This document shows, piece after piece, positions 27,832-37,884 of a stretch of DNA of 64,000 nt. Below the pieces are notes generated by a model, which saw nothing but the letters and a program-made list of their open reading frames with translations, was not told the DNA's origin and did not search any database. Numbering within the stretch: position 1 is the first letter of the stretch; each line of letters starts with the position of its first letter. Made by a program: the position numbers and the translations under genes. The DNA comes from Escherichia phage vB_EcoS_HASG4: the sequence record NC_100331.1. One strand, written 5' to 3'.

Positions 27832-27907
27832 TGGTAGTTAGTAGTGGATTTGAACCACTGTAGTCGCTCCGTATGAAGGAGGTGCATAACCACTCTGCCA
27901 ACTAACT
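27832..27907 (-). tRNA. tRNA with CAT anticodon (Met or Ile-lysidine type)
   Basis: hand fold: acceptor AGTTAGT/ACTAACT, loop TTCATAC, T-arm GTGGTTCAAATCCAC, CCA encoded. Confidence 0.75.
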
Positions 27908-28003
27908 ATTATGTTTTATTAGACTAAGTAAGTATTCTTTATACTCTTTGGACCAATTAGCTTTTTTAAACTTTCCTGGACGCATAGTCTTAATTCCTAA
28001 ATT

Positions 28004-28080
28004 TGGTACTCCGGGAGGGATTTAAACCCTCGATCTCTCGGTTATCAGCCGAGTGCTTTAGATCGCTAAGCTACCGAAGC
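28004..28080 (-). tRNA. tRNA-Ile (GAT)
   Basis: anticodon arm CTCGG-CTGATAA-CCGAG; T-arm GAGGGTTTAAATCCCTC; CCA encoded. Confidence 0.8.
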
Positions 28081-28081
28081 A

Positions 28082-28261
28082 TTAACATTTAATTGCAGAA
28101 CGTTTACCGTTTCTAGGCGCACCTGGAAGTCGTGCACGTTCTGCCATTCTTCGCTTAATCTTTGAGATATTTTCTAGTGTTTGTTTTTCAGGTTTAATAC
28201 CTGAAACACTACACCACTGATTACCATCCCATGCGGTAATGATCATAACACCATTGCTCAT
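28082..28261 (-). CDS. small hypothetical protein
   Basis: 59 aa ORF below track cutoff; stop abuts tRNA-Ile 5' end. Confidence 0.3.
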   Translation of the reverse strand: MSNGVMIITAWDGNQWCSVSGIKPEKQTLENISKIKRRMAERARLPGAPRNGKRSAIKC

Positions 28262-28287
28262 GATCTTTTCTGTGAAAGTAATCCTAA

Positions 28288-28581
28288 TTATAGCAACTCA
28301 TCTAAGCAAGAGGTATATTTAAGTTTACCATCTTTATCTACTTTGATTTCGACTTCCGCTCGTGGTACTTGACGAACTACACCATGAATCATCTTATAGC
28401 GAATGCCTTTAGCTGGTTCATGCTCTTTTGGAAATACTTGCTTAACCGTTACTACCTTGAAACCCTCACGCGGTGTTAACACTACTACTTGATCACCTTC
28501 TTTGATCTTCCAAGAGCTGGGAAATTCATAGGTATAGCGTTGACCACCAGTTTGGAACACAACAGAAAGATAACGTTTCAT
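28288..28581 (-). CDS. hypothetical protein
   Basis: 97 aa; promoter cassette upstream. Confidence 0.5.
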   Translation of the reverse strand: MKRYLSVVFQTGGQRYTYEFPSSWKIKEGDQVVVLTPREGFKVVTVKQVFPKEHEPAKGIRYKMIHGVVRQVPRAEVEIKVDKDGKLKYTSCLDELL

Positions 28582-28648
28582 TTGGTTTCCCTCTCATTAA
28601 TTTATATAAATATTATAACAAGAAATAAGAGAGAAAGCAAATGAATTT

Positions 28649-28816
28649 TTAATAAAGTTTAGTCACTTCATAAACTATACTACGAGATTCTTTATTACGT
28701 TCTATTAAATTAGCGTATGCTTTTTCAGCTTCATTTTTAGTATTAAAGTCTATAACGTGGGAGGTATTAGCTCTGTTTGATTGACTATACCAGATAACTA
28801 CTAGGAGTTTAAACAT
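28649..28816 (-). CDS. hypothetical protein
   Basis: ORF 28649-28843 trimmed to internal ATG (RBS AAGGA) to avoid tRNA overlap. Confidence 0.4.
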   Translation of the reverse strand: MFKLLVVIWYSQSNRANTSHVIDFNTKNEAEKAYANLIERNKESRSIVYEVTKLY

Positions 28817-28830
28817 ACTAGTCCTTAAAT

Positions 28831-28917
28831 TGGTGCTGGGCACAGGATTCGAACCTGCAACGGGGTTACTCCTCCTGATTACAAATCAGGTGCATTCAAC
28901 CATTCTGCCAACCCAGC
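28831..28917 (-). tRNA. tRNA, anticodon loop TTTGTAA (reads TGT, Thr?) with long variable arm
   Basis: 87 nt; acceptor GCTGGGT/GCCCAGC; 3-bp D-stem; ~15-nt variable region; T-arm GCAGGTTCGAATCCTGT. Confidence 0.55.
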
Positions 28918-29082
28918 AGAACCCGTTATTTCAACGGGATTTCTTTTTCAATAACAGGAGACTTATCAGTCATAACTGTCATTGCCATTTGTTGTAGAAA
29001 TTCAAAGGTGAAGGCAACACGTTCTTCACCAATCTCTACTTCTACACGTTTCTTTTGTTTGTCGATCTTGACTTTTAGGTTA

Positions 29083-29334
29083 TCAGCCATTAGAGAGTAT
29101 AGTACTGGTAGTTGGCAATATTACAGATGAAGCAACAGTGTTTAAATGCTTTCTCCAGTCTAGGTTAAATTGTTTTCGAAACTCTTCATAAGGTTCTTCT
29201 GGATAAAAGCTAAAACCTCCTTTCTCATCATTCAGGATGACAGAGCCGTCAGTTTGTTCGTATGCTCGGTATGTTTCTCCAATAACAATAACTCGTTTAT
29301 CGGTACTTTTATTACGAAACTCAAAAACGTGCAT
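29083..29334 (-). CDS. hypothetical protein
   Basis: 83 aa; RBS AAGGA. Confidence 0.5.
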   Translation of the reverse strand: MHVFEFRNKSTDKRVIVIGETYRAYEQTDGSVILNDEKGGFSFYPEEPYEEFRKQFNLDWRKHLNTVASSVILPTTSTILSNG

Positions 29335-29341
29335 AACGTTT

Positions 29342-29417
29342 CCTTAAAGTTGGAGCGGCTAGAGGGAATCGAACCCTACTCAGCGAGGCTTGGAAGGCCT
29401 GCGACACAACCCGTGTG
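29342..29417 (-). tRNA. tRNA-Gly (TCC)
   Basis: loop CTTCCAA; 3' end GCCGCTCCA and T-arm GGGTTCGATTCCC as in bacterial Gly(UCC). Confidence 0.7.
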
Positions 29418-29425
29418 CTTAACCG

Positions 29426-29501
29426 CTTATTGTTTGGCTGGAGAAGGAGGAATCGAACCTACCATTAACGGAGTCAAAGGCCGTTGTGCTAACCGTTACA
29501 C
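29426..29501 (-). tRNA. tRNA-Gln (TTG)
   Basis: starts TGGAG, ends CCAGCCA (U1-A72, G73); loop centre TTG. Confidence 0.7.
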
Positions 29502-29507
29502 TACTCT

Positions 29508-29583
29508 CCAATTGTTTGGCTGGAGTGCCTGGGATCGAACCAGGAACCTTCGGAGTCAGAGGCCGACGATCTGCCAATTGATC
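29508..29583 (-). tRNA. tRNA-Gln (CTG)
   Basis: paralog of previous; loop CTCTGAC. Confidence 0.7.
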
Positions 29584-29601
29584 TACACTCCAAAAATGCT
29601 A

Positions 29602-29838
29602 TTAATTAGACGCTGTCTCTACTGGCTGAGATACAGCAGGCTGTTCTAACGTATCTGGTGCTGATACGGAGAAAAGAGCTTGTAATGCTGCAATATCACG
29701 CTCGTAAGTATCAATACGAGTAGTAAGAGTATCTACCATCTGTTTATGATAGGCTAAGTTATTCTGAGATTCATCTCGAAGAGTTTGCAGTTCTGCAAGA
29801 CGTGTTAACATAATTTCACTAATTAAAGCATTACTCAT
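29602..29838 (-). CDS. hypothetical coiled-coil protein
   Basis: 78 aa. Confidence 0.45.
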   Translation of the reverse strand: MSNALISEIMLTRLAELQTLRDESQNNLAYHKQMVDTLTTRIDTYERDIAALQALFSVSAPDTLEQPAVSQPVETASN

Positions 29839-30028
29839 TTGTTTCTCCTAAATTTTCCGGTTCTTCTAAACGTTTGCCTTCATGATCTACTCGAATAACT
29901 CCGCATCCTTCGCAAATCACAACTGCACCATAACCTTCTTTGACTTCGGCTTCTGTAATCAAACCAGAAAGATCACCAGTATCTCTGCCCCACATATCAA
30001 TGGAGCATTGTTTGCAGAAATCAGCCAT
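29831..30028 (-). CDS. small Cys-containing protein
   Basis: 65 aa; CxxC...CEGC. Confidence 0.45.
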   Translation of the reverse strand: MADFCKQCSIDMWGRDTGDLSGLITEAEVKEGYGAVVICEGCGVIRVDHEGKRLEEPENLGETNE

Positions 30029-30053
30029 ATTTTATTTCCTATTTAAGTTAATT

Positions 30054-30130
30054 TGGGGTGGCTAGTGGAATTCGAATCCACATAGGCCTGATTCACAATC
30101 AGGATCATTAACCAATTATGATATAGCCAC
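30054..30130 (-). tRNA. tRNA-His (GTG)
   Basis: anticodon arm CCTGA-TTGTGAA-TCAGG; T-arm GTGGATTCGAATTCCAC. Confidence 0.8.
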
Positions 30131-30360
30131 AATTGAAAACTCGCAGGGTTAGCGAAACCATCCTCAATTAGCATGTTCTAGAATACTAATCAAGTTATCT
30201 CCTATTGCACGCAGCTCAAGACGAGTACGAATTTTCAATTATGGCGGCTCTCAGAAACTCTTCTATTCTAGCCTCAGAAGCTTACCCCCGAACGCATGTC
30301 GGGAAAGTCTTTCCAAGCGCATCAAATAGCACCGTTACACTTTGAGCCATTGATGTATCA

Positions 30361-30460
30361 AGGAATAGAAGGACTTGAACCTTCATGAGTTAGACCATTT
30401 AACTCAACCGCTTTTAAGGTATATTTCTAGGAGTGGATGTTCCTAGTAAACCTATTCGGC
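30361..30460 (-). ncRNA. tRNA-like element with Leu-type T-arm (atypical; boundaries uncertain)
   Basis: GAAGGTTCAAGTCCTTC T-arm and two 6-bp hairpins; could not be folded into a canonical cloverleaf. Confidence 0.3.
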
Positions 30461-30691
30461 AGTCCCGTCTACCAATTCCGGCATATTCCAAGAATTTTTA
30501 TAAACCAGCAGAAGCCTCATTTAAAGCATCAACAATAGCTTCACGCTGGGTCATTCCATACCCGGTGGAATCTAGGTGTGGCAAATAAGCCATCCATCCC
30601 TTATCTGTTTCATGAAGACATGCTTTAAATTTCTTACCATCCTTCATTGTTACAGTAACTGTTTCGCTCATAAGATTTCCTTATAGTTAAT

Positions 30692-30781
30692 TGGCAGAAG
30701 ATAATGGAGTCGAACCATCACCGTATCGCTACAGCGGGCTGGTTTTCAAGACCAGTTACGTACCACTACGTCCTATCTTCT
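30692..30781 (-). tRNA. tRNA-Ser (TGA)
   Basis: 90 nt type II; acceptor AGAAGAT/ATCTTCT; anticodon arm CTGGT-CTTGAAA-ACCAG. Confidence 0.8.
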
Positions 30782-30794
30782 AGTATTTATTATA

Positions 30795-31142
30795 CTAATA
30801 GTCACTTGTACTAGTGAAGTTTTCTACTTTTCCACAGATTTTACAAGTCCTACGATGATAGTAGGTAATTTTTACTTTAGACCAGCCATCGTGATCATTA
30901 CCTAGATTTTCTGTTACTCCCCAAGTATGAGAACACTCATTTTCAATTTGCTTAGTAAGAGCGTTATAGCGAGTATAAAACTCCTCCTGAGCAATAGCAA
31001 ATTCTTTCTGTAGTTTATCACGAGCAATAATAGCACGTTCCAGATATGTTAAATCAGGCATTCCAGCTTTTTCAGCAGCATCTATAATCTTATCTTCATC
31101 TAAAGATGCTAAAAACTCTAGAGCTTTATCTTTTGCTAGCAT
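30795..31142 (-). CDS. hypothetical protein with C-terminal zinc-ribbon-like CxxC pair
   Basis: 115 aa. Confidence 0.5.
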   Translation of the reverse strand: MLAKDKALEFLASLDEDKIIDAAEKAGMPDLTYLERAIIARDKLQKEFAIAQEEFYTRYNALTKQIENECSHTWGVTENLGNDHDGWSKVKITYYHRRTCKICGKVENFTSTSDY

Positions 31143-31161
31143 TATTATTACCTCAAGTGTT

Positions 31162-31252
31162 TGGCGGAAGAGGAGAGATTTGAACTCTCAAGCCGTTTTA
31201 CCAGTCAGCCACTTTCCAAGCGGTTTTCGTCGCCAATTCGATTTGCTCTTCC
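31162..31252 (-). tRNA. tRNA-Ser (GGA)
   Basis: 91 nt type II; starts GGAAGAG; loop TTGGAAA; T-arm GAGAGTTCAAATCTCTC. Confidence 0.75.
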
Positions 31253-31364
31253 AATAATAAGATGATGCCTCTATCACACCAGGCAGTTACGCCTCGCTGG
31301 GATTCGAACCCATTAAAACAGCTCAACCGAGATAGTAGGTTTAATTTACTCTGACCATCAAATT

Positions 31365-31441
31365 TGGTGCGTGACAAGGGATTCGAACCCTCAAAACCCG
31401 ACTTCTAAGGACGGTATGTATGCCAATTCCATCAATCACGC
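31365..31441 (-). tRNA. tRNA, anticodon loop CTTAGAA (reads TAG; Leu-decoding?)
   Basis: 77 nt; acceptor GCGTGAT/GTCACGC; T-arm GAGGGTTCGAATCCCTT; short variable loop. Confidence 0.55.
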
Positions 31442-31446
31442 GTATT

Positions 31447-31525
31447 TGGTGGAGAATAACGGAATCGAACCGTTCTGATGTCCTCGGTGCAAGCGAGGTG
31501 TCCACTCCATGCAGACCCATTCCCC
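31447..31525 (-). tRNA. tRNA-Ala (TGC)
   Basis: acceptor GGGGAAT with G3-U70 wobble; anticodon arm CCTCG-CTTGCAC-CGAGG. Confidence 0.8.
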
Positions 31526-31748
31526 AAATTCTTTAGTTTACTAAGGCTATTAGCTCGGCGTAACTACAGCACCTTCGCTTCGGGCGGAAGGAACTGCGTC
31601 ATCTCGCAAACCCAATACACTATTCAGTTGCCGCTGAATCTAGTGGACCAATCTAGAACTTCTCCCGAATCATGGGGATCGTGCTTTTTGGCAGCCAGTC
31701 CTAGGTCGAGCTAATACCTTAGTGAACTATGATGAGGATCTCTCCTCA
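31526..31748 (-). ncRNA. candidate non-coding RNA region downstream of a promoter cassette
   Basis: 223 nt without ORF; cassette at ~31749-31780 points into it; hairpin ccttcgcttcgggcggaagg. Confidence 0.3.
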
Positions 31749-31784
31749 TCAATTTATATAAATATTATAACAAGAAATTAAGCA

Positions 31785-32153
31785 TTAAGCAAGTACATTT
31801 TTAGCGATTTCTTGTAGTTCCTTTACATCACGAACGTAAAGGTAATCAGAGCTTCCAGAGTGCATACTTTGCATAACCACACCTTCATCTGGTGCATTAT
31901 CCTTCAAAGTAATTCCTAACCAGAACTCGGCAAAACTAGGTGTTACCTCACCTTGACTTGCCTTGAATACATCATATTCTGTAAGTTCTTGACCAGTAGA
32001 TAATCCCAAATAGACAGAACTAAGATCAATCTCTTTATGAGACTCATAAAATTCCGATAGATCTTTTTCCATATCCCAGCCATGCTGTAACGCGAACTCC
32101 ATTGTCACATGACCGAAATAACCTTGAATCTTGCTTGATAATTGCATTTGCAA
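31785..32153 (-). CDS. hypothetical protein
   Basis: 122 aa; RBS AAGGAA. Confidence 0.5.
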   Translation of the reverse strand: MQMQLSSKIQGYFGHVTMEFALQHGWDMEKDLSEFYESHKEIDLSSVYLGLSTGQELTEYDVFKASQGEVTPSFAEFWLGITLKDNAPDEGVVMQSMHSGSSDYLYVRDVKELQEIAKNVLA

Positions 32154-32172
32154 TTCCTTATTTTGAGTTAAT

Positions 32173-32246
32173 TGGTACTCGGTGATAGAATCGAACTATC
32201 GCAACCGCCGTGTAAAGACGGGGTTCTCCCATTAAACTAACCGAGC
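32173..32246 (-). tRNA. tRNA-Val (TAC)
   Basis: anticodon arm CCGTC-TTTACAC-GGCGG; T-arm GATAGTTCGATTCTATC. Confidence 0.75.
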
Positions 32247-32250
32247 AATT

Positions 32251-32329
32251 TGGTAGATCGCCTGGGACTCGAACCCAGAACCTTCCGATTAAAAGTCGGA
32301 TGCTACTGAACCTATTGAGCTAGCGATCT
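32251..32329 (-). tRNA. tRNA-Lys (TTT)
   Basis: anticodon arm TCCGA-CTTTTAA-TCGGA; T-arm CTGGGTTCGAGTCCCAG. Confidence 0.8.
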
Positions 32330-32518
32330 ATTAGTAACCATTGTATACTTCTTTAATAGAGTGAACTTTCAAGTAGGGGTGATTAGTATTAAACTCTACC
32401 ATTACTTCATCCCAATTTTTACCATAATGAGCGAGTAAGGATTTTGATGTATTCTTACCTAAACGTTTGTCACTTACTACTAATCGAAATACTTTCATTT
32501 CGAAATCCTCTATTAAAA

Positions 32519-32596
32519 TGGGAGCGGGTGCAGGAATCGAACCTACCTCTTTCTAGCTTATGAGACTAGCGATCTCTACCAGAGATCTAACCCGCA
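32519..32596 (-). tRNA. tRNA with CAT anticodon (Met-type)
   Basis: loop CTCATAA; 1-72 mismatch; T-arm GTAGGTTCGATTCCTGC. Confidence 0.7.
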
Positions 32597-32602
32597 ATTG
32601 TT

Positions 32603-32680
32603 TGGTCTCCGTGGGAGGATTTGAACCCCCGACCCTATCGCCCCAAACGAAACGCTCTGGCCAAACTGAGCTACACGGAG
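32603..32680 (-). tRNA. tRNA-Pro (TGG)
   Basis: D-stem GCTC/GAGC; loop TTTGGGG; T-arm GGGGGTTCAAATCCTCC. Confidence 0.75.
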
Positions 32681-32684
32681 AATA

Positions 32685-32843
32685 TTATTTCTTCAACCAC
32701 AACAAAGATAAGCCCAGCATACTAAAGCCGCTAACTAATCCGATACATTTTTCTTCTGTAGTAAAAGTATCTAGATTAAATGCTGTTATAGCTATTGGCA
32801 TACACCATAATGCCATAAAAACTTGAGCTATCTTGTGTTTCAT
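32685..32843 (-). CDS. small membrane peptide
   Basis: 52 aa ORF below track cutoff; promoter cassette and RBS directly upstream. Confidence 0.35.
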   Translation of the reverse strand: MKHKIAQVFMALWCMPIAITAFNLDTFTTEEKCIGLVSGFSMLGLSLLWLKK

Positions 32844-33054
32844 TTTGCTTTCCTTCTCTTCACTTTATAAAATATATTATACAGAGAATTAAGCATAATA
32901 GCAAATGAATTTTTAATAAATTTACTTATTGTGTAGGCCACCTGGAGGCTACCAACCCCACGGCTGACAAAGAAGTTTGCGAGACCCCTCTTAAATGCCA
33001 GAATAGACCCGCCGATCTATCGGAACCTACATAATAAGTAAACTTTATAGTGTC

Positions 33055-33174
33055 ATTCTAGACAGGACTCGAACCTGTTATCACTTGTGCGGACTTACGA
33101 GAACCATTCTTTCACTCGAATCGAACGAGCTTCTGCCCTCGCCAAGCTGGTTTCCCCATCAACCACGCTAGAAT
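33055..33174 (-). ncRNA. tRNA-like RNA of atypical length (~120 nt)
   Basis: perfect 7-bp acceptor-like pairing ATTCTAG/CTAGAAT; T-arm ACAGGTTCGAGTCCTGT; second T-like hairpin; too long for a tRNA. Confidence 0.35.
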
Positions 33175-33296
33175 GTTTGATTGTTTTCAGTGCAAGAGTC
33201 CGAGTCTTGGACACGACCGCTTCGCAAATACATAGGCAGCTTATCATGAGTCAGCACTTCCGAATTGCTAGCTCCGTGTTCTGCACTGAAATTTTA

Positions 33297-33644
33297 TTAG
33301 TTTAACCGTAAAGTATTATCTACTTCACCATTAATTGTTCGGCATTCCTCAGGGATTGCTGGTGTAGTCTTATACTCCCACCATTCAGAACCATCATATT
33401 CACCACGTTCTAACCAAGTTCCGTCAGTAAACCATACGTTACCATAAAGCAATTGTCCACCGAAACCAGAATCATATTTAAAGTCTAGATTATTTAGAAA
33501 ATCTTCAATATCTTTTTCTGTATAACCTACGGGTAATACCCAAACTTCTTTGTCCCCATAATAACCGAATTCTATCTTAATACACTTAACTTCAGACTTA
33601 GTATTCTTTAGGGCAAGTAACAACTCTTCTTTAGCATTAATCAT
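33297..33644 (-). CDS. hypothetical protein
   Basis: 115 aa. Confidence 0.5.
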   Translation of the reverse strand: MINAKEELLLALKNTKSEVKCIKIEFGYYGDKEVWVLPVGYTEKDIEDFLNNLDFKYDSGFGGQLLYGNVWFTDGTWLERGEYDGSEWWEYKTTPAIPEECRTINGEVDNTLRLN

Positions 33645-33670
33645 AGCATATTTCTCGTACTAGTTTAGTT

Positions 33671-33746
33671 TGGTACACCCACTAGGACTTGAACCTAGAA
33701 CCCTCCGCTTAAGAGGCGGTAGCTCTAACCATTGAGCTATGGATGT
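33671..33746 (-). tRNA. tRNA-Lys (CTT) candidate
   Basis: acceptor ACATCCA/TGGGTGT; D-stem GCTC/GAGC; loop CTCTTAA; T-arm CTAGGTTCAAGTCCTAG. Confidence 0.6.
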
Positions 33747-33929
33747 ATATTTGAAGAATCTCTCGTAAGAATTTCTTCAAATACCCTCTCCTGTGAAAAA
33801 GGGGGGTTTGCTTAATTATTGTGGCTAGGGCGCGGTAAAGTAGCTTTCTAGTCGGAAGCCCCAGAGCATATCCGTCTAAAGACCATATGTGACCTCCCCT
33901 ATCTTTACCTACTCTGTACCATAATTGTT

Positions 33930-34006
33930 TGGCGCGACCGATGGGATTTGAACCCACATTCCCTCCCGTGACAGGGGAGTACCATTACCAAGCCAGCCCC
34001 GGTCGC
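33930..34006 (-). tRNA. tRNA-Asp (GTC)
   Basis: anticodon arm CTCCC-CTGTCAC-GGGAG; T-arm TGGGTTCAAATCCCA. Confidence 0.8.
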
Positions 34007-34015
34007 ATAATTCAT

Positions 34016-34201
34016 TTACTCAGCTTTGAGTTTTTCAATAGCTGCATTAAGTTCTTTAAGAAACTCTTTTCGTACATTAAGACGATTAAGACTTACTAGT
34101 ATATCCTGTTTAAGTTCTTCGATGTATTTCTTCTCAACTTCAATATTGTTGATAGTGCTATCACGATGAACTTCTAACTGTGCAATTACATTCTTGGACA
34201 T
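34016..34201 (-). CDS. small coiled-coil protein
   Basis: 61 aa. Confidence 0.4.
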   Translation of the reverse strand: MSKNVIAQLEVHRDSTINNIEVEKKYIEELKQDILVSLNRLNVRKEFLKELNAAIEKLKAE

Positions 34202-34303
34202 GACTGTTTCCTCAGTTATTAATGAAAATGGTATCTGTGGCTGAATTCGATATCAGCAATGATAGCTGGTTGGCTACCGGTTTACTTAACTCTACACAGA
34301 ATT

Positions 34304-34386
34304 TGGCGGGCCGTGTAGGATTCGAACCTACGTTGTCTTTCGACATGGATTAACAGTCCACCGCCAAACCGCTTGGCTAACGACCC
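34304..34386 (-). tRNA. tRNA-Asn (GTT) candidate with extended variable arm
   Basis: 83 nt; anticodon arm GTGGA-CTGTTAA-TCCAT; ~13-nt variable hairpin GTC-GAAA-GAC. Confidence 0.65.
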
Positions 34387-34396
34387 TAAATTTATA

Positions 34397-34536
34397 TTGC
34401 TGACTAGGATTTTCACCTAGACGGAGTTAGCACCGTAGCGTGTAGCGGCATACCTCTCCAAACCGTGCCTCATCTTTCAATTACGGAGACAGTGTTCCTA
34501 CGCGTGCCTGAATTGATTTAACAATTCTTTCAGCAA
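34397..34536 (-). ncRNA. tRNA-like RNA of atypical length (~140 nt)
   Basis: 7-bp acceptor-like pairing TTGCTGA/TCAGCAA; T-arm-like hairpin CTAGG-TGAAAAT-CCTAG next to the 3' strand. Confidence 0.3.
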
Positions 34537-34538
34537 AT

Positions 34539-34614
34539 TGGACGACCGCATGAGATTTGAACTCACATAAAAAGGATTTGCAATCCTTCGCCTAAGCCAT
34601 TCAGCCAACGGTCG
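34539..34614 (-). tRNA. tRNA-Cys (GCA)
   Basis: anticodon arm AAGGA-TTGCAAA-TCCTT; discriminator U; T-arm GTGAGTTCAAATCTCAT. Confidence 0.8.
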
Positions 34615-34686
34615 ATTTATCTTGTTCTGTCATGTTGCTTCTCCAGTTCAATTTATGTAATTATTATTATACAGAACTTTTGGAAA

Positions 34687-34974
34687 CTAAGCAACTACAT
34701 TTTTTAAGAATTTGATGCCTTTCTTTTTCTTCTTATATTTCCACGTTAAGGGATTCTGTCGATTATGAACGCTTGAGATCTTCGTCTCGTCAAAGTTCTT
34801 CAATATCATGTAATCACAAGATAATTGTTCTAATGGAATGTGATCACCGTCAAAAGCATATACATAAGGCTGTTGACTAGCACGATAATGATAGACTTTG
34901 TTAATTCTACGTTTCAGCGACTTATCAGCGCAGTAAATAAAGAAGTTTTCAGGATGCATCAGCAGCTCCTTCAA
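34687..34974 (-). CDS. hypothetical protein
   Basis: 95 aa. Confidence 0.5.
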   Translation of the reverse strand: MKELLMHPENFFIYCADKSLKRRINKVYHYRASQQPYVYAFDGDHIPLEQLSCDYMILKNFDETKISSVHNRQNPLTWKYKKKKKGIKFLKNVVA

Positions 34975-34976
34975 TT

Positions 34977-35051
34977 TGGTGCACCCTGTTCGTATCGAAC
35001 GAACCTCTCAAGCTCTTCAGGCAAGCGCTAATCCATCTCAGCTAAAGGTGC
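34977..35051 (-). tRNA. tRNA-Phe (GAA) candidate
   Basis: loop CTGAAGA; T-arm GTTCGTTCGATACGAAC; anticodon stem imperfect. Confidence 0.65.
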
Positions 35052-35057
35052 AAATTT

Positions 35058-35128
35058 TGGCAGGGGTAAAGGTATTCGAAACCTTTTCATGGGTTTTGGA
35101 GGCCCATTTGCAACCTATGCGTACCCCA
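35058..35128 (-). tRNA. tRNA-Trp (CCA), short D-arm
   Basis: 71 nt; loop CTCCAAA and 3' end CCCCTGCCA resemble bacterial tRNA-Trp. Confidence 0.65.
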
Positions 35129-35137
35129 ATTGTTAAT

Positions 35138-35212
35138 TGGCACACCCACGGAGAATTGAACTCCGATTCTCAGATTGAAATCCTGATGTCCTGGCCATTA
35201 GACGATAGGTGC
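35138..35212 (-). tRNA. tRNA-Glu (TTC)
   Basis: D-arm GTCTAATGGCCAGGAC resembles bacterial tRNA-Glu; anticodon arm TCAGG-ATTTCAA-TCTGA. Confidence 0.75.
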
Positions 35213-35220
35213 ATTAAATT

Positions 35221-35308
35221 TGGTGGGCGTTAATGGAGTCGAACCACTCGAGTCGCAATGACCAGGGATTTACAATCCCCTCCGCTACCACTTACGGAAT
35301 AAACGCCC
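35221..35308 (-). tRNA. tRNA-Tyr (GTA)
   Basis: 88 nt type II; anticodon arm GGGGA-TTGTAAA-TCCCT. Confidence 0.8.
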
Positions 35309-35436
35309 ATATTTAGAAGCATTCAAATACTTGTTTAAACACTTTTAAATATGTTTCCAAATTAGATAACTATTATACCAAGTTTTAAGGCACTGAGCAA
35401 GTCAAATTTTGAAGAACTTGCTCAGTGCTGTATTAG

Positions 35437-35712
35437 TTAGTCGAACTTAGGAGTGACAGCTAAGGAGAACGGAAGTTCAAAAACTTCTTCCCCCTCATTA
35501 CTAACGGTAACTACACGACCTTTAAGTTCAGACATTAAAATATCAATATCAGCTTTTGCATCTGGAGCCATGCCAGCTTCAATACATTTAGCTTTAACTT
35601 CTGGTAAAAGCTCTACGTTATAGAGATAGAGCCACTCAATCTCACCTTCCCAGTCTTCCCAGGATTTGCAGATTGCACTTTCAATACCAGTTGCTACAAC
35701 ACGATTTTGCAT
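35437..35712 (-). CDS. hypothetical acidic protein
   Basis: 91 aa; promoter cassette upstream. Confidence 0.5.
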   Translation of the reverse strand: MQNRVVATGIESAICKSWEDWEGEIEWLYLYNVELLPEVKAKCIEAGMAPDAKADIDILMSELKGRVVTVSNEGEEVFELPFSLAVTPKFD

Positions 35713-35802
35713 TAATTAACTCCTTCATCAATTTATACAACTATTATATCAGAAATTTAAAGCAAAAGGCAAGTACATTTTTAAAAATTCTATTCGGAGG
35801 AG

Positions 35803-36009
35803 CTAAACTCCAGATTCTTCAGCTAAGTCTAGGCTAATAAGAGTTATAGCCATAATTGCTGCACCGTGTTCTTTTTCTCCGGTGTTTTTAGCAGAGTCTA
35901 TAATAGTCTTAATCTGTTCGTAATAGCCTTTTACTTCTTGTTCAATACCTGCCTCGGCTATCATGCCTTTAGTCATGATTCGTTGCATAGTAATTTCACG
36001 GTTAGCCAT
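35803..36009 (-). CDS. small hypothetical protein
   Basis: 68 aa. Confidence 0.4.
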   Translation of the reverse strand: MANREITMQRIMTKGMIAEAGIEQEVKGYYEQIKTIIDSAKNTGEKEHGAAIMAITLISLDLAEESGV

Positions 36010-36198
36010 GTTGTTTCTCCAGCTTCATTTTTAATAGTTTACAAATGAAATCAACGTCTTCATCTGTACCTAGATCTCTATCTTCAAGGGTTGCCTTGAA
36101 ATTTTTCGTTAGTTCCATAAGAATAACTTCCCTAGAACGACGTGTTGGCGGAGGTGGATGTCTATACATCTTAATTCCTTAATTTGGTAGGGATTATA

Positions 36199-36882
36199 TC
36201 ATCTACTTTTCTTAATACTTTTAGGATCTTTCCCTGTTAGGGACTTATACCTTTTCCTTAATCCAGTATCAGACAATCCTAGTTCTTTGGAGGCACGAAT
36301 CCAGGAATATTTAGATACCCAGTACTCTATTTGCTCCACAGTAATATCTGGATTTATAGTTATCTCTTTAGGAGTACATGATTTACAGTGTGTTGCTCTT
36401 GAACTAATTTCGCAGTGACAAATAGCACACGTATTTACAGTTCTTTCTGTATACCTGCCAATATTTTTGCCTGCATGAGTAGGTGTTAGTGCATGGCAAT
36501 TTGGACATAGGAGGGCTAAGTTATCCCATTCATTATTATAGTGATTTCCATCCTTGTGTTCGAGTTCTAAAGGAATTGGTTTGTCTAACCAACTTTCTAA
36601 GCCACAACTCTCACACTTATGTGGTTTTAGCCCCTCGTTAAGAATTTTATTCTTTAGTTTATAGGAAGAAATAGGGCTGCCGTTATATAAATACTCTGTT
36701 GCAGACTTATATTTATTATCATACTGCCTATTCGCAGGAATAACTACTATTCCTAGTTTTCCTAAATATGCTTCCAAAGTGTTCGAGGAGCAGGATAGCA
36801 TTCTTGCTATCTCTGCTTTAGATTTTCCCTGAGCTATCCACTGAGCTATTTCTTCCTTTCTATCTAGTATATCAGTTCTCAT
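36199..36882 (-). CDS. HNH homing endonuclease with N-terminal HTH
   Basis: 227 aa; CESCG...HKDGNHYNNEWDNLALLCPNCH zinc/HNH motif. Confidence 0.7.
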   Translation of the reverse strand: MRTDILDRKEEIAQWIAQGKSKAEIARMLSCSSNTLEAYLGKLGIVVIPANRQYDNKYKSATEYLYNGSPISSYKLKNKILNEGLKPHKCESCGLESWLDKPIPLELEHKDGNHYNNEWDNLALLCPNCHALTPTHAGKNIGRYTERTVNTCAICHCEISSRATHCKSCTPKEITINPDITVEQIEYWVSKYSWIRASKELGLSDTGLRKRYKSLTGKDPKSIKKSR

Positions 36883-36905
36883 AGTTTATGACTTTATAAT
36901 TAAGT

Positions 36906-36983
36906 TGGTGGCTCCCCGAGGATTCGAACCTACGTACCTTCCGGTTATGAGCCGGGTGCTCATACCATATGAGCTTGAGAACC
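36906..36983 (-). tRNA. tRNA with CAT anticodon (third copy)
   Basis: acceptor GGTTCTC/GGGAGCC; anticodon arm CCGG-CTCATAA-CCGG. Confidence 0.7.
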
Positions 36984-36989
36984 AAAATC

Positions 36990-37079
36990 TGGCGGAAGAA
37001 GTGGGAATCGAACCCACAAGGCTATATTTCAAACCGACAGATTAGCAATCTGCTGCAATACCGTTATGCTATTCTTCCG
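36990..37079 (-). tRNA. tRNA-Ser (GCT)
   Basis: 90 nt type II; starts GGAAGAA; anticodon arm GCAGA-TTGCTAA-TCTGT; promoter cassette abuts 5' end. Confidence 0.8.
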
Positions 37080-37099
37080 AATTTATAAGATATATTATA

Positions 37100-37618
37100 T
37101 TAGAAATTTAGCTTCATAGCAAGAAAATTTTTCAAGTTTTCGGTAGACATCTCATCCACATCTACGGGAGAAACAAATCCATTTAATTGTCTAGCAAACT
37201 TTTCACCAGCAGGATCATTGTCCCCAACAGCTACCAATTTAAAAGGTAGTAATTTCAGTTGCTTTAATAACGCTTTTCCTGGAGAAGAACCCAACATTGC
37301 CAGGGCTGGATAACCAGCATTATGTAACGCAACTGCCTTAAATACAGATTCAGCAATCAATACTACTTTTTCATCTCCATTGAGAGTTTCTAGTCCCCAT
37401 ACACACTGGGTAGTAGAATAAGTAAAATATTTAGCTTCAAAGGGGCACTTACCATGACCTTTTGGAGCAGAAGGATTATAAGTTTGATAGCCCCTCAACA
37501 TCCCAGAGAAGTCATACAACGGGACTGTTAGCCATCCTTCCGGACTTAACCAGCAATGATATTTATCTGTATCAAATCCTCTAGATAAGAGGTGCTGTGT
37601 TAGCTCATCAACATTCAT
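37100..37618 (-). CDS. TOPRIM-like domain protein
   Basis: ORF 37100-37669 trimmed (track start read through promoter cassette); IAESVF...GDNDPAGEKFA resembles TOPRIM. Confidence 0.5.
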   Translation of the reverse strand: MNVDELTQHLLSRGFDTDKYHCWLSPEGWLTVPLYDFSGMLRGYQTYNPSAPKGHGKCPFEAKYFTYSTTQCVWGLETLNGDEKVVLIAESVFKAVALHNAGYPALAMLGSSPGKALLKQLKLLPFKLVAVGDNDPAGEKFARQLNGFVSPVDVDEMSTENLKNFLAMKLNF

Positions 37619-37633
37619 ATTTGGTTCCTCTCT

Positions 37634-37658
37634 CAAATTTATAGATATATTATACAGA
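37634..37658 (-). promoter_or_regulatory. conserved early promoter-leader cassette (example)
   Basis: plus-strand caaatttatagatatattatacaga. Confidence 0.6.
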
Positions 37659-37793
37659 GAATTTAGCATTCAAGCAATCAAATTTTTTAACTTTTTAGAG
37701 GAAAATCATAGGGCACTTAAGGGTAGCAGATAAGTGGTGAGGACCAAAATTTGTGACCCAACTAAAAATCCGGGGGCAATTTTTAAAGACCCC

Positions 37794-37822
37794 TTGACAT
37801 TTTCGCGGGGGTAGTGTAAAGT
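37794..37822 (+). promoter_or_regulatory. host sigma70-type promoter (TTGACA-17-TAAAGT)
   Basis: ttgaca at 37794-37799, 17-bp spacer, taaagt at 37817-37822; differs from the phage cassette used by neighbours. Confidence 0.65.
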
Positions 37823-37884
37823 ATATGTTATGGATGAGTGATCAAAGAGACACACATTTTCTATATACTAGGAGGTGTCAAAAA

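What the first reader, a model, noticed from the sequence alone, without database searches (positions are those of the whole stretch)
28831..34386. tRNAs whose architecture does not match their apparent anticodon
By hand folding, 28831-28917 has a type-II layout (3-bp D-stem, ~15-nt variable arm) but a Thr-like loop TTTGTAA; 34304-34386 (GTT, Asn) has a 13-nt variable hairpin; 31365-31441 is type-I sized but its loop reads TAG (Leu codons). These are either non-canonical phage tRNAs with altered identity elements or folding errors on my part.
Basis: seen in the sequence. Interest (0 to 1): 0.45.

Follow-up and report, generated by a model that had tools for sequence, protein, structure and literature searches.

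The report
Phage tRNAs with swapped structural class
Three transfer-RNA genes of this T5-like phage really have the "wrong" shape for their anticodon (long-armed Thr and Asn, short-armed Leu) yet keep every feature the matching charging enzymes need, so they are working tRNAs in an unusual body, possibly one that host anti-phage tRNA-cutting enzymes fail to recognise.

Summary
The window is Escherichia phage vB_EcoS_EASG3, a T5 relative. ARAGORN and Rfam call all three genes at the stated coordinates with the architectures described:
- an 87-nt tRNA-Thr(UGU) with a class-II body;
- an 83-nt tRNA-Asn(GUU) with a 13-nt variable hairpin;
- a 77-nt tRNA-Leu(UAG) with a 5-nt variable loop.

They are not folding errors. 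Identity elements are not altered: each keeps the E. coli determinants that match its anticodon.

Phage T5 itself carries canonical-size alleles in the same slots, so these are replacement cassettes. Identical or near-identical copies in Salmonella phage 5 and BF23 carry GenBank notes that CUA-anticodon versions act as amber suppressors, so the bodies work in E. coli translation.

The pattern is general. In one small IMG/VR phage sample, 15 of 21 tRNA-Leu were short-armed, and short-armed Leu also fills dense bacterial tRNA arrays. Long-armed Asn, Thr(UGU), Ile, Met, Cys and Trp recur with covarying hairpins. Ser and Tyr keep their arms.

Thr(UGU) and Asn(GUU) are targets of the PARIS AriB nuclease, and Thr(UGU) of P2 OLD. 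Escape through the altered body is a plausible but untested reason for the shape.

The parts
28831..28917 (-). tRNA-Thr(UGU), 87 nt, with a class-II-like body. Layout: acceptor GCUGGGU/GCCCAGC, A73, CCA; D stem GCA/UGC; D loop GAAUGGUUGAA; anticodon arm CCUGA-UUUGUAA-UCAGG.
   Evidence: ARAGORN. Rfam 58.9 bits. It is 86/87 identical to Salmonella phage 5 tRNAT, whose CUA-anticodon version is noted as an 'effective amber suppressor'. Covariation across 16 relatives gives 97% of cells paired.
28859..28873 (-). Variable arm of tRNA-Thr (tRNA nt 45-59, AGGAGUAACCCCGUU). It has one 5' nt, a GGA(G)/(C)CC stem with a GUAA-type loop, and a 4-nt 3' tail. In this phage the third pair is A.C; in most relatives it is A-U.
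   Evidence: ARAGORN fold. Alignments A1 and A3 show GGA/UCC, GAC/GUC, UGC/GCA, GGU/ACC and GGG/CCC stems at the same place. All 3 pairs show changes on both sides. The single C/U difference from phage 5 is shown.
31365..31441 (-). tRNA-Leu(UAG), 77 nt, type-I size. It keeps the Leu-type D arm (AUG/CAU stem, D loop GAAUUGGCAUA), A73 and CCA. There is a U.U mismatch in the anticodon stem (canonical positions 30 and 40).
   Evidence: ARAGORN. Rfam 47.5 bits. It is 77/77 identical to phage 5 tRNAL1 and 100% identical to BF23 (H170). The BF23 tRNAL1 note reads 'effective amber suppressor'.
31393..31397 (-). 5-nt variable loop GUUUU of tRNA-Leu, where a 10-18-nt arm would normally sit. The last U is U48, partner of A15.
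   Evidence: ARAGORN fold. U48 and A15 are invariant in 74/74 distinct short Leu tRNAs of the same layout.
34304..34386 (-). tRNA-Asn(GUU), 83 nt. It has a class-I core (4-bp D stem, 7-nt D loop) plus an extra hairpin, with G73 and CCA. Positions 36-41 read U36 A A U C C41.
   Evidence: ARAGORN. Rfam 59 bits. The MFE fold equals the cloverleaf plus hairpin. It is 83/83 identical to phage 5 tRNAN, noted as an amber suppressor after the CUA swap.
34332..34344 (-). Variable hairpin of tRNA-Asn (tRNA nt 43-55): GUC-GAAA-GAC followed by a 3-nt tail AAC.
   Evidence: Among 93 distinct long-arm Asn tRNAs from IMG/VR, 89% have a stem of at least 3 bp, against 61% of shuffled sequences. GNRA loops account for 38 of the 83 hairpins.
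32251..32329 (-). tRNA-Lys(UUU), 79 nt. This is context, not part of the original finding. It is the third member of the set of anticodons cut by PARIS AriB, and it is also a replaced allele (70% identical to T5's).
   Evidence: PARIS targets are taken from PMC12409363.

Best explanation
These are three genuine elongator tRNA genes of a T5-like phage. Their bodies have changed structural class, but their aminoacylation determinants still match their anticodons.

The three tRNAs:
- tRNA-Thr(UGU) has a complete class-II body: 3-bp D stem, 11-nt D loop and a variable-arm hairpin.
- tRNA-Asn(GUU) has a class-I core with a GNRA-capped hairpin inserted in the variable region.
- tRNA-Leu(UAG) keeps the Leu-type D arm but has lost the long arm.

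Proposed mechanism:
- Host ThrRS, AsnRS and LeuRS charge them.
- They decode ACA, AAC/AAU and CUA-family codons during infection.
- They are alternative alleles that replaced T5-type canonical tRNAs by cassette exchange in the homing-endonuclease-rich tRNA region.

Shown:
- The genes exist, and their architecture is conserved and covaries.
- The cognate determinants are retained.
- The bodies function in E. coli translation, according to GenBank notes on suppressor tests.

Inferred:
- The amino acid attached is the cognate one.
- The altered body is favoured because it changes recognition by tRNA-targeting nucleases (PARIS AriB for Thr(UGU) and Asn(GUU); P2 OLD for Thr(UGU)).
- The Leu arm is lost because LeuRS does not need it.

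I put about 0.8 on 'functional, cognately charged, class-swapped tRNAs' and about 0.3-0.35 on nuclease escape as the selective reason.
For: Architecture
- ARAGORN and Rfam agree on all three folds.

Thr
- It carries G1-C72 and C2-G71 plus G35 and U36.
- In alignment A3 (15 class-II-like Thr plus one Trp), pair 1-72 is G-C in 14 rows and pair 2-71 is C-G in 15 rows.
- 97% of cells pair, and the variable helix changes on both sides in all 3 pairs. Slid controls reach only 31-43%.
- Discriminators vary (U, A, G, C), as expected for Thr and not for Leu.

Asn
- The anticodon is GUU, and G73 is present in 84 of 93 long-arm relatives.
- Hairpins are enriched over shuffles and are GNRA-capped.

Leu
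- Among 74 distinct short Leu tRNAs, A73, A14, A15 and U48 are each present in 74/74, G18 in 73/74, G19 in 72/74 and A20a in 71/74. Stems pair at 99% with many pair types.
- These are the E. coli LeuRS determinants. The long arm is dispensable for that enzyme (PMC9976931).

Internal control
- Ser (59/60) and Tyr (41/42) keep their arms in the same contigs. [quoted passage not shown]
- Leu is short in 41 of 93 in those contigs, and in 15 of 21 in a sample not selected on these features.

Function in E. coli (GenBank notes)
- Phage 5 Thr (86/87 identical): 'effective amber suppressor'.
- Phage 5 Asn (83/83 identical): 'amber suppressor'.
- BF23 Leu1 (identical): 'effective amber suppressor'.

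Allele replacement
- T5 has a 75-nt Thr, a 78-nt Asn and an 85-nt type-II Leu in the same slots.
- 9 of 21 syntenic tRNA pairs are only 56-73% identical, while 10 are at least 96% identical.

Nuclease link
- AriB cleaves E. coli Lys(UUU), Thr(UGU) and Asn(GUU) (PMC12409363).
- P2 OLD degrades Thr(UGU) (PMC12445682).
- Long-arm Thr is exclusively UGU: 10 of 39 UGU against 0 of 25 for the other Thr anticodons.
- Bas33 (HildyBeyeler) carries the 87-nt Thr and an 86-nt long-arm Asn but no Lys(UUU). It was rescued from PARIS by T5 tRNA-Lys alone, whereas T7 needed Lys plus Thr.
Against: - No aminoacylation or cleavage data exist for these exact molecules.
- Amber suppression shows function but not which amino acid is inserted. 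BF23's 75-nt canonical Thr is also an effective suppressor.
- E. coli LeuRS failed to charge the type-I tRNA-Leu(CAA) of S. coelicolor and is described there as charging only type II (PMC6614811).
- ThrRS and AsnRS are class II synthetases, which face the variable-region side of tRNA (my own knowledge), so a long arm could hinder them.

Against nuclease escape specifically:
- The Thr keeps the AriB site U36AAUC|A41 and the OLD motif C28UG/C40AG with a 5-bp stem. The Asn keeps U36AAUC|C41. These are host-like sequences, and the published resistance determinants are sequence changes there.
- Long arms also occur on isotypes with no known nuclease (Cys, Trp, His).
- Long-arm Asn and Thr were 0/13 each in the unselected sample.
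- No nuclease specific for the long arm of tRNA-Leu was found in the literature.
Confidence: 0.75

Rival explanations
1. Neutral structural drift. The arm insertions (Thr, Asn) and the arm loss (Leu) are tolerated because the relevant synthetases, EF-Tu and the ribosome do not read the variable region. They spread by hitch-hiking on tRNA cassettes moved by homing endonucleases. They have no role in defence evasion.
For: - LeuRS does not need the arm, and short Leu is the commonest form in an unselected phage sample (15/21).
- Long arms appear on many isotypes with no known nuclease.
- The Thr and Asn keep host-like cleavage-site sequences.
- The tRNA region is mosaic and carries an HNH gene.
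Against: - The hairpins are maintained by compensatory change and carry GNRA caps, which argues for selection on the arm itself.
- Long-arm Thr is restricted to the UGU isoacceptor, the one attacked by AriB and OLD.
- The Bas33 rescue pattern fits resistance.
- Long-arm versions keep UAAUC more often than short ones: Asn 50% against 22%. This comparison is confounded by sampling.
Confidence: 0.3
2. Identity-switched or dual-identity tRNAs. The class-II body would recruit an anticodon-blind synthetase: LeuRS for the A73 'Thr' tRNA, and SerRS for the G73 'Asn' tRNA. ACA and AAY codons would then be partly read as Leu and Ser.
For: - The Thr has A73, A14, A15, U48 and G18G19, together with a long arm.
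- The Asn has G73, G1-C72, G2-C71 and an extra hairpin. [quoted passage not shown]
- Both become amber suppressors when the anticodon, a major ThrRS/AsnRS determinant, is replaced. T5's canonical Thr and Asn do not.
Against: - The Thr lacks A20a (it has U there), and G18G19 sit one position earlier than in Leu.
- Relatives have U, G or C at position 73 but conserve G1-C72 and C2-G71.
- The Asn arm is only 3 bp with a 3-nt 3' tail, on a class-I D arm. Most long-arm Asn relatives start with U1, not G1G2.
- The full cognate determinant sets are present.
- CUA-anticodon suppressors are often charged by GlnRS or LysRS (my own knowledge). BF23's canonical 75-nt Thr is also a suppressor.
Confidence: 0.06
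3. Non-translational tRNA-like RNAs. They would act as decoys or sponges that bind host tRNA nucleases or other factors, or they would be decaying pseudogenes.
For: - The same region holds several tRNA-like stable RNAs of unknown function, annotated in T5, phage 5 and BF23.
- The PARIS authors raise competition with host tRNAs as a possibility.
- The host-like cleavage-site sequences are retained.
Against: - The CUA-anticodon versions suppress amber codons, so the bodies are processed, charged and used on the ribosome.
- CCA is encoded, the determinants are conserved, and pairing reaches 97-99% across distant relatives.
Confidence: 0.05
4. Folding or annotation artefact. The tRNAs would be ordinary, and the odd architecture would be a mis-parse.
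For: Hand folding is error-prone. The MFE folds of Thr and Leu are not cloverleaves.
Against: ARAGORN and Rfam agree on the folds. The gene lengths (87, 83 and 77 nt) by themselves force the variable-region sizes. Covariation supports every helix, including the extra arm.
Confidence: 0.01

Closest known systems
[quoted passage not shown]
   Same: Same phage genus, same genomic slots and same anticodons. They are thought to replace host tRNAs destroyed by AriB.
   Different: The T5 molecules are canonical in size (75 and 78 nt) and differ from the host around the cleavage site, for example UAAG instead of UAAU. The alleles here are about 60% identical to them. They keep the host-like site and differ in body architecture instead. 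Neither paper's main text mentions a variable arm.
Phage tRNA-Thr(UGU) variants that rescue P2-OLD toxicity (PMC12445682)
   Same: Phage-encoded Thr(UGU) that replaces thrU.
   Different: Published resistance needs an altered CNG motif together with a shortened anticodon stem. The tRNA here has C28UG/C40AG intact and a 5-bp stem.
Type-I tRNA-Leu(CAA) of Streptomyces coelicolor, and mitochondrial tRNA-Leu (PMC6614811)
   Same: A tRNA-Leu without the long variable arm that coexists with, or replaces, type-II Leu.
   Different: The Streptomyces tRNA does not use A73 and is not charged by E. coli LeuRS. The phage family conserves A73, A15-U48, G18G19 and A20a. An identical copy works as an effective suppressor in E. 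coli.
Canonical bacterial class-II tRNAs (Leu, Ser, Tyr, Sec)
   Same: The Thr has the 3-bp D stem, the long D loop and a stem-loop variable arm.
   Different: The isotype is wrong for the class. The arm is short (3 bp) and has a 3-4-nt 3' tail, against mostly 0-1 nt in Leu/Ser/Tyr of the same contigs. The Asn has the arm on a class-I core.
Long tRNA arrays (L-arrays, tRNA array units) of bacteria and their plasmids (PMC8421152, PMC4758250, PMC12803027)
   Same: Dense, horizontally moving tRNA sets next to homing endonucleases, proposed to back up translation under stress or defence. Short Leu tRNAs of the same layout fill these arrays (186 of 203 in the scanned loci).
   Different: Those papers do not describe the class swap. 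Long-arm Asn and Thr are rare in the arrays sampled (1/47 and 3/59).

Membership tests
Bacterial-type tRNA (Rfam RF00005) | Cloverleaf with a 7-bp acceptor stem, 5-bp anticodon and T stems, a 7-nt anticodon loop with U33, U8, A14, G18G19 and a T loop UUCGAAU | tested here: met
   Scores of 58.9, 59.0 and 47.5 bits against a threshold of 29. ARAGORN folds. CCA is encoded in all three.
Class II (type II) tRNA | Variable region of at least 10 nt that forms a stem-loop | tested here: met
   Met for Thr (15 nt) and Asn (13 nt, GUC-GAAA-GAC). Not met for Leu (5 nt), the isotype that should have it.
Class II (type II) tRNA | 3-bp D stem with an enlarged D loop | tested here: met
   Met for Thr and for the short Leu (3 bp, 11-nt loop). 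Not met for this Asn (4 bp, 7-nt loop). The Bas33 Asn allele does have it.
Class II (type II) tRNA | In bacteria, the isotype is restricted to Leu, Ser, Tyr and Sec | tested here: not met
   The anticodons are UGU (Thr) and GUU (Asn).
E. coli tRNA-Thr identity set | G1-C72 and C2-G71 in the acceptor stem plus anticodon G35 and U36; the discriminator is not strongly used | tested here: met
   The sequence reads GCUGGGU...GCCCAGC-A with UGU. In A3, G-C is found at pair 1-72 in 14 of 16 rows and C-G at pair 2-71 in 15 of 16. The general statement comes from PMC9976931. The exact pairs come from my own knowledge of Hasegawa et al. 1992.
E. coli tRNA-Asn identity set | Anticodon G34, U35, U36 plus discriminator G73 | tested here: met
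   G73 is present in 84 of 93 long-arm relatives.
E. coli tRNA-Leu identity set | A73, U8:A14, the A15-U48 Levitt pair, G18G19, A20a and intact D/T-loop contacts; the long arm is not required | tested here: met
   All are present in the window's tRNA and nearly invariant in 74 relatives. The determinants are taken from PMC9976931. Actual charging by E. coli LeuRS could not be tested here.
E. coli tRNA-Ser identity (considered for the long-arm Asn) | Long variable arm in the Ser orientation, on the characteristic class-II tertiary core, with G73 and G1-C72/G2-C71 | tested here: inconclusive
   G73, G1-C72 and G2-C71 are present. However, the arm is only 3 bp with a 3-nt tail, on a 4-bp D stem. 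The phage's own Ser tRNAs have 4-5-bp arms.
PARIS-resistant phage tRNAs | Same anticodon as an AriB target (Lys UUU, Thr UGU, Asn GUU) | tested here: met
PARIS-resistant phage tRNAs | Substitutions at or around the 40|41 cleavage site (U36AAUC|A41) or at U16 | tested here: not met
   The Thr reads UAAUCA and the Asn reads UAAUCC, identical to the E. coli targets as quoted. The Thr keeps U16 but has no U17.
PARIS-resistant phage tRNAs | Resistance to AriB cleavage and rescue of PARIS toxicity | not testable with these tools
   There is only indirect evidence. Bas33, which carries these allele types, needs just T5 tRNA-Lys for rescue.
P2-OLD-resistant phage tRNA-Thr | An altered CNG pseudo-palindrome together with a shortened anticodon stem | tested here: not met
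   C28UG30/C40AG42 are retained, and the C27-G43 pair is intact.
tRNA array / phage tRNA cluster | Many tRNA genes at high density, with neighbouring homing endonuclease genes | tested here: met
   23 ARAGORN calls plus 3 further tRNA-like genes lie within 27832-41271. An HNH gene sits at 36199-36882.

The most novel reading that the evidence does not exclude
Changing the structural class of a tRNA would be a second, architecture-level route by which phages and mobile tRNA arrays make decoders invisible to tRNA-targeting immune nucleases. The change means adding a variable-arm hairpin to Thr(UGU), Asn(GUU) and others, or removing it from Leu. This route would be distinct from the anticodon-stem-loop substitutions described so far. 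It is available only where the cognate synthetase ignores the variable region, which would explain why Ser and Tyr never switch.
Probability: 0.3. Interest if true: 0.8.

Novelty: new variant of a known kind. Interest (0 to 1): 0.58.

Why it matters
Textbooks restrict long variable arms in bacteria to Leu, Ser, Tyr and Sec. Here, a model-phage lineage that infects E. coli carries Thr and Asn tRNAs with such arms and Leu tRNAs without one. The same swaps recur across uncultivated phages and bacterial tRNA arrays.

If the bodies are charged cognately, they are natural experiments on what ThrRS, AsnRS, LeuRS, EF-Tu and the ribosome tolerate. They would also be ready-made scaffolds for tRNA engineering.

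If the altered body blocks AriB, OLD or similar nucleases, it reveals a new layer of the tRNA arms race. It would also give direct handles for mapping how these nucleases read tRNA shape. Every step can be tested with existing E. coli systems: PARIS plus Ocr, P2 OLD plus Gam, and phage Bas33.

Tried and rejected
- BLAST of the 87-nt Thr against 5,426 E. coli genomes at E up to 10 found nothing. No host tRNA is close enough to name a source. I did not repeat this for Asn and Leu.
- Single-sequence MFE folding was uninformative for Thr and Leu.
- I looked for a bacterial nuclease specific for type-II tRNAs that could explain loss of the Leu arm. Bacterial Schlafen and Cash papers show anticodon-arm or T-loop cleavage with no class-II preference, so I dropped this idea.
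- I tested whether T5-type sequence changes and the long arm are strict alternatives. Long-arm Thr and Asn keep UAAUC more often than short ones, but not exclusively, and the samples are confounded. I keep this only as a weak hint.
- Bas34 does not inform on the long-arm Asn, because its Asn is a 77-nt canonical allele.
- Supplementary tables of the PARIS and OLD papers, which would show whether the 87-nt Thr was in the rescue screens, are not held.
- Ten literature searches found no paper describing class-swapped phage tRNAs. Older Russian-language or subscription papers from the Pushchino T5 group are not in the library and may discuss them.
- A covariance model of the class-II-like Thr family was built (R1) but not used for searching, because the ARAGORN parses already gave the needed sets.
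- tRNAscan-SE isotype-specific models could not be run.

Full report
**What the window is.** The 8 kb around the finding is 100% identical to Escherichia phage vB_EcoS_EASG3 (MK373799.1), a Tequintavirus. Window coordinates equal record coordinates plus 39. The finding lies in the tRNA region typical of T5-like phages. ARAGORN tRNA genes between 27832 and 41271, all on the minus strand. Rfam and folding reveal three more tRNA-like genes.

**Checking the observation.** ARAGORN places tRNA-Thr(tgt), tRNA-Leu(tag) and tRNA-Asn(gtt) at exactly the coordinates given.

- The Thr gene (87 nt) reads GCUGGGU-UG-GCA-GAAUGGUUGAA-UGC-A-CCUGA-UUUGUAA-UCAGG-AGGAGUAACCCCGUU-GCAGG-UUCGAAU-CCUGU-GCCCAGC-A-CCA. 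It has a 3-bp D stem, an 11-nt D loop and a 15-nt variable region containing a short hairpin.
- The Asn gene (83 nt) has a normal 4-bp D stem and 7-nt D loop. Its 13-nt variable region is GUC-GAAA-GAC-AAC.
- The Leu gene (77 nt) has the 3-bp D stem and 11-nt D loop (GAAUUGGCAUA) typical of Leu tRNAs, but only a 5-nt variable loop, GUUUU.

Rfam's general tRNA model scores them at 58.9, 59.0 and 47.5 bits against a threshold of 29. The minimum-energy fold of Asn alone reproduces the cloverleaf with the extra hairpin. The Thr and Leu minimum-energy folds are not cloverleaves, which is common for single tRNA sequences.

**Identity elements.** The E. coli determinant sets come from a 2023 review (PMC9976931).

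- Thr identity rests on acceptor-stem pairs and the anticodon. The tRNA has G1-C72, C2-G71, G35 and U36. The specific pairs are from my own knowledge of the primary literature.
- Asn identity rests on the anticodon and G73. Both are present.
- Leu identity rests on A73, A14, the A15-U48 pair, G18G19 and A20a, and explicitly not on the long arm. All of these are present.

The architecture therefore disagrees with the anticodon, but the determinants do not.

**T5 itself is canonical at these positions.** In the T5 reference genome the same slots hold a 75-nt Thr(UGU), a 78-nt Asn(GUU) and an 85-nt type-II Leu(UAG). Pairwise comparison of 21 syntenic tRNA genes between EASG3 and T5 gives two groups. 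Ten pairs are at least 96% identical. Nine are only 56-73% identical: Thr, Leu, Asn, Ala, Lys(UUU), Pro, both Gln, and Glu. In several cases at least one flank remains well conserved. The three odd tRNAs are thus replacement alleles in a mosaic region that also carries an HNH endonuclease gene.

Allele types assort independently among relatives:

| Phage | Thr | Asn | Leu |
|---|---|---|---|
| T5 | 75 nt | 78 nt | 85 nt type II (UAG) |
| BF23 | 75 nt | 78 nt | 77 nt (UAG) |
| Salmonella phage 5 | 87 nt | 83 nt | 77 nt (UAG), 77 nt (UAA) |
| EASG3 (this window) | 87 nt | 83 nt | 77 nt (UAG) |
| Bas33 | 87 nt | 86 nt, long arm on a 3-bp D stem | 77 nt (UAG), 77 nt (UAA) |
| Bas34 | none | 77 nt | none |

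**Experimental evidence already in GenBank.** Two tRNA-region records deposited with detailed experimental notes (AJ604531 and NC_042564) carry results of anticodon-swap suppressor tests.

- The phage 5 Thr gene is 86/87 identical to the window's. The single difference turns the A.C in the variable stem into A-U. Its note reads that replacement of the anticodon with CUA 'converts this tRNA into effective amber suppressor'.
- The phage 5 Asn gene is 83/83 identical and is noted as an amber suppressor.
- The phage 5 Leu1 gene is 77/77 identical and is stated to equal the BF23 gene, whose note reads 'effective amber suppressor'. One search confirms BF23 at 100% identity.
- The type-I-size Leu(UAA) of phage 5 is also an effective suppressor.

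All three bodies are therefore processed, charged by some synthetase and used by the E. coli ribosome. The tests do not say which amino acid is inserted. T5's canonical Thr and Asn are noted as not becoming suppressors, but BF23's canonical 75-nt Thr does. The contrast therefore cannot be attributed to the arm.

**Relatives and covariation of the Thr.** The 87-nt Thr occurs in about 100 T5-like genomes and, at 77% identity, in T4-like Aeromonas phages as an 85-nt form. An 87-nt tRNA-Trp(CCA) of Erwinia phage pEp_SNUABM_01 shares the same D arm, variable arm and T arm. Its acceptor is a Trp-type AGGGAGG...G73 with its own anticodon stem. This looks like identity remoulding on a conserved class-II-like scaffold.

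I aligned 15 class-II-like Thr tRNAs from GenBank, IMG/VR and bacterial contigs, plus the Trp. In that alignment 97% of cells pair, against 68% in shuffles and 31-43% with slid partners. Twenty of 23 pairs change on both sides. This includes all three pairs of the variable helix, even in an alignment that takes no account of structure.

**The same swaps elsewhere.** I scanned IMG/VR for Asn anticodon loops followed by a long gap before the T arm. The scan returned 93 distinct long-arm Asn tRNAs.

- 84 of them have G73.
- 89% have a hairpin of at least 3 bp, against 61% of shuffles.
- 38 of 83 loops are GNRA.

In those contigs long arms also occur on other isotypes:

| Isotype | Long-arm / total |
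|---|---|
| Ile(UAU) | 10/22 |
| Thr(UGU) | 10/39 |
| Other Thr anticodons | 0/25 |
| Met(CAU) | 14/64 |
| Cys | 7/33 |
| Trp | 5/36 |
| His | 5/39 |
| Ser | 59/60 |
| Tyr | 41/42 |

In the same contigs 41 of 93 Leu are short. In a second IMG/VR sample chosen only by a T-loop-plus-CCA pattern, 15 of 21 Leu are short, while long-arm Asn and Thr are 0/13 each.

A scan of one genome per bacterial species for the short-Leu(UAG) pattern hit Acidobacteria, Cyanobacteria, Planctomycetes, Actinobacteria and others. Most hits lie in dense arrays of up to 37 tRNAs per 8 kb. There, 186 of 203 Leu are short, while Ser (77/78) and Tyr (30/30) keep their arms.

Across 74 distinct short Leu tRNAs of identical layout:

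- A73, A14, A15 and U48 are invariant.
- G18 is present in 73/74, G19 in 72/74 and A20a in 71/74.
- Stems pair at 99%, with up to six pair types per position.

Leu, whose synthetase ignores the arm, loses it. Ser and Tyr keep theirs; SerRS relies on the arm, and bacterial TyrRS also uses it (my own recollection). That is what selection for cognate charging predicts.

**Why the odd bodies? This part is inference.** Two Toprim nucleases of phage-borne defence systems attack the isoacceptors involved.

- PARIS AriB cleaves E. coli Lys(UUU), Thr(UGU) and, less efficiently, Asn(GUU) between positions 40 and 41 (U36AAUC|A41). A second, inactive monomer is modelled on D-loop U16-U17. T5's three tRNAs together neutralise PARIS (PMC12409363).
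- P2 OLD cuts both strands of the anticodon stem of Thr(UGU) at a paired CNG motif. Phage Thr(UGU) genes rescue the cells, and resistance requires a changed CNG plus a shortened stem (PMC12445682).

The window's Thr keeps U36AAUCA41, C28UG/C40AG and a full 5-bp stem. Its Asn keeps U36AAUCC41. By the published sequence rules they look sensitive. T5's canonical alleles differ at exactly these positions (UAAG...). If the EASG3-type tRNAs resist, the cause must be the body: the variable arm emerges three nucleotides after the cut site, and the D loop is rebuilt.

Indirect support comes from Bas33 (HildyBeyeler, PMC11619597). It carries the 87-nt Thr and a long-arm Asn but only Lys(CUU). The PARIS authors report that T5 tRNA-Lys(UUU) alone rescues Bas33, whereas T7 needs Lys plus Thr. 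Long-arm Thr being confined to the UGU isoacceptor points the same way. So does the higher retention of UAAUC in long-arm versions, although that comparison is confounded by sampling.

Evidence against this reading:

- No cleavage data exist for these molecules.
- Long arms also occur on isotypes with no known nuclease.
- I found no nuclease that would explain loss of the Leu arm.
- Neutral tolerance plus cassette mobility remains a serious alternative.

**Caveats on cognate charging.**
- E. coli LeuRS did not charge the type-I Leu of S. coelicolor (PMC6614811). That tRNA uses different determinants.
- ThrRS and AsnRS are class II enzymes that face the variable side of tRNA (my own knowledge).
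- The Asn combines G73, G1-C72 and G2-C71 with an extra hairpin, which overlaps serine determinants.
- The Thr combines A73, A15-U48 and G18G19 with a class-II body, which overlaps leucine determinants, although it lacks A20a.

I rate significant mischarging as unlikely, at about 0.06. It is the most disruptive possibility and is easy to test.

**Known or new.** The genes themselves are not new. They are annotated as plain tRNA-Thr, tRNA-Leu and tRNA-Asn in hundreds of records. GenBank notes on the phage 5 and BF23 tRNA-region records report that they were functionally tested. That phage tRNAs replace nuclease-damaged host tRNAs is established.

What I could not find in the searchable literature is any statement of three points (ten searches):

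- that these phage tRNAs have swapped structural class;
- that type-I Leu was the commonest Leu form in the one unselected phage sample I drew, and dominates the mobile tRNA arrays I scanned;
- that the PARIS and OLD target isoacceptors exist in a class-II form with host-like cleavage sites.

Subscription-only and older papers are outside the library, so prior description cannot be excluded. I class the finding as a new variant of a known kind.

**Verdict.** The best explanation is functional, cognately charged tRNAs carried as alternative cassettes. An architecture-level route of nuclease evasion is the most interesting open possibility.

Noticed in passing
window 36906-36983 (-), 29351-29427 (-), 31165-31258 (-): Three tRNA-like genes missed by ARAGORN. 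The first is an Ile2/Met-type CAU tRNA with CCA (Rfam 40.3 bits), at the slot of T5 tRNAI2. The second is a Gly(UCC)-like gene with a weak anticodon stem, which Rfam scores only as Sec-like at 30.9 bits. The third is a Ser(GGA)-like class-II gene that looks degenerate here but is annotated in T5, phage 5 and Bas33.
   Followed up: partly
window 41198-41271 (-): ARAGORN calls a 74-nt 'tRNA-Ser(act)' with an 8-bp acceptor stem, a 3-nt variable loop and no CCA. This is another mismatch between architecture and anticodon. The same call appears in T5 and Bas33, inside what the T5 record annotates as stable 'RNAX'. It is probably a tRNA-like element rather than a Ser tRNA.
   Followed up: partly
window 30360-30500, 33050-33190, 34220-34300 (-): tRNA-like stretches with T-arm motifs. 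They correspond to the 'RNA1', 'RNA2' and 'RNA3' tRNA-like stable RNAs of unknown function annotated in T5, phage 5 and BF23. One of them scores 23.9 bits on the tRNA model.
   Followed up: no
window 27832-40696 compared with L002 (T5): Nine of 21 syntenic tRNA genes are non-orthologous replacements (56-73% identity): Thr, Leu, Asn, Ala, Lys(UUU), Pro, both Gln, and Glu. Tyr is 80% identical. Ten others are at least 96% identical. The replaced set includes every known target of PARIS, and Tyr is the Retron-Eco7 target.
   Followed up: partly
L004:292-378 (Erwinia phage pEp_SNUABM_01): An 87-nt tRNA-Trp(CCA) shares the D arm, variable arm and T arm of the T5-like class-II Thr. Its acceptor stem (A1-U72, G2-C71, G3-C70, G73) and anticodon arm are Trp-type. 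Identity seems to have been remoulded on one scaffold.
   Followed up: partly
IMG/VR loci L012-L131 (e.g. L012:291, L036:7585, L025:582): tRNA-Ile(UAU) genes of 90-96 nt with 20-25-nt variable arms make up 10 of 22 distinct Ile(UAU). There are also long-arm Met(CAU), Cys, Trp, His, Lys and Pro tRNAs. In contrast, there were none among 41 Ala(UGC) or 25 Arg(UCU).
   Followed up: partly
bacterial loci L133-L252 (e.g. L137, L142, L135): Dense tRNA arrays (up to 37 genes per 8 kb) occur in Planctomycetes, Acidobacteria, Cyanobacteria and Actinobacteria. In them nearly every Leu isoacceptor (UAG, UAA, CAA, GAG) is type-I sized, while Ser and Tyr stay class II.
   Followed up: partly
window 28865 (tRNA-Thr nt 53): EASG3 has C where phage 5, Bas33 and most relatives have U. 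This turns the innermost variable-stem pair A-U into A.C. Only 3 of 113 records are at least 99% identical to the EASG3 version.
   Followed up: yes
window 31447-31525 (-) and 32251-32329 (-): tRNA-Ala(UGC) is 79 nt, with a 7-nt variable loop and an 11-nt D loop; G3.U70 is present. tRNA-Lys(UUU) is 79 nt and reads U36AAUC|G41, so it differs from the E. coli AriB site only at position 41. T5's Lys differs at positions 39 and 41.
   Followed up: no
L005:301-387 (Salmonella phage STG2): The STG2 copy of the class-II Thr has A43 opposite C27, which shortens the anticodon stem. The OLD paper reports the same kind of change (U43A) as one half of P2-OLD resistance.
   Followed up: no
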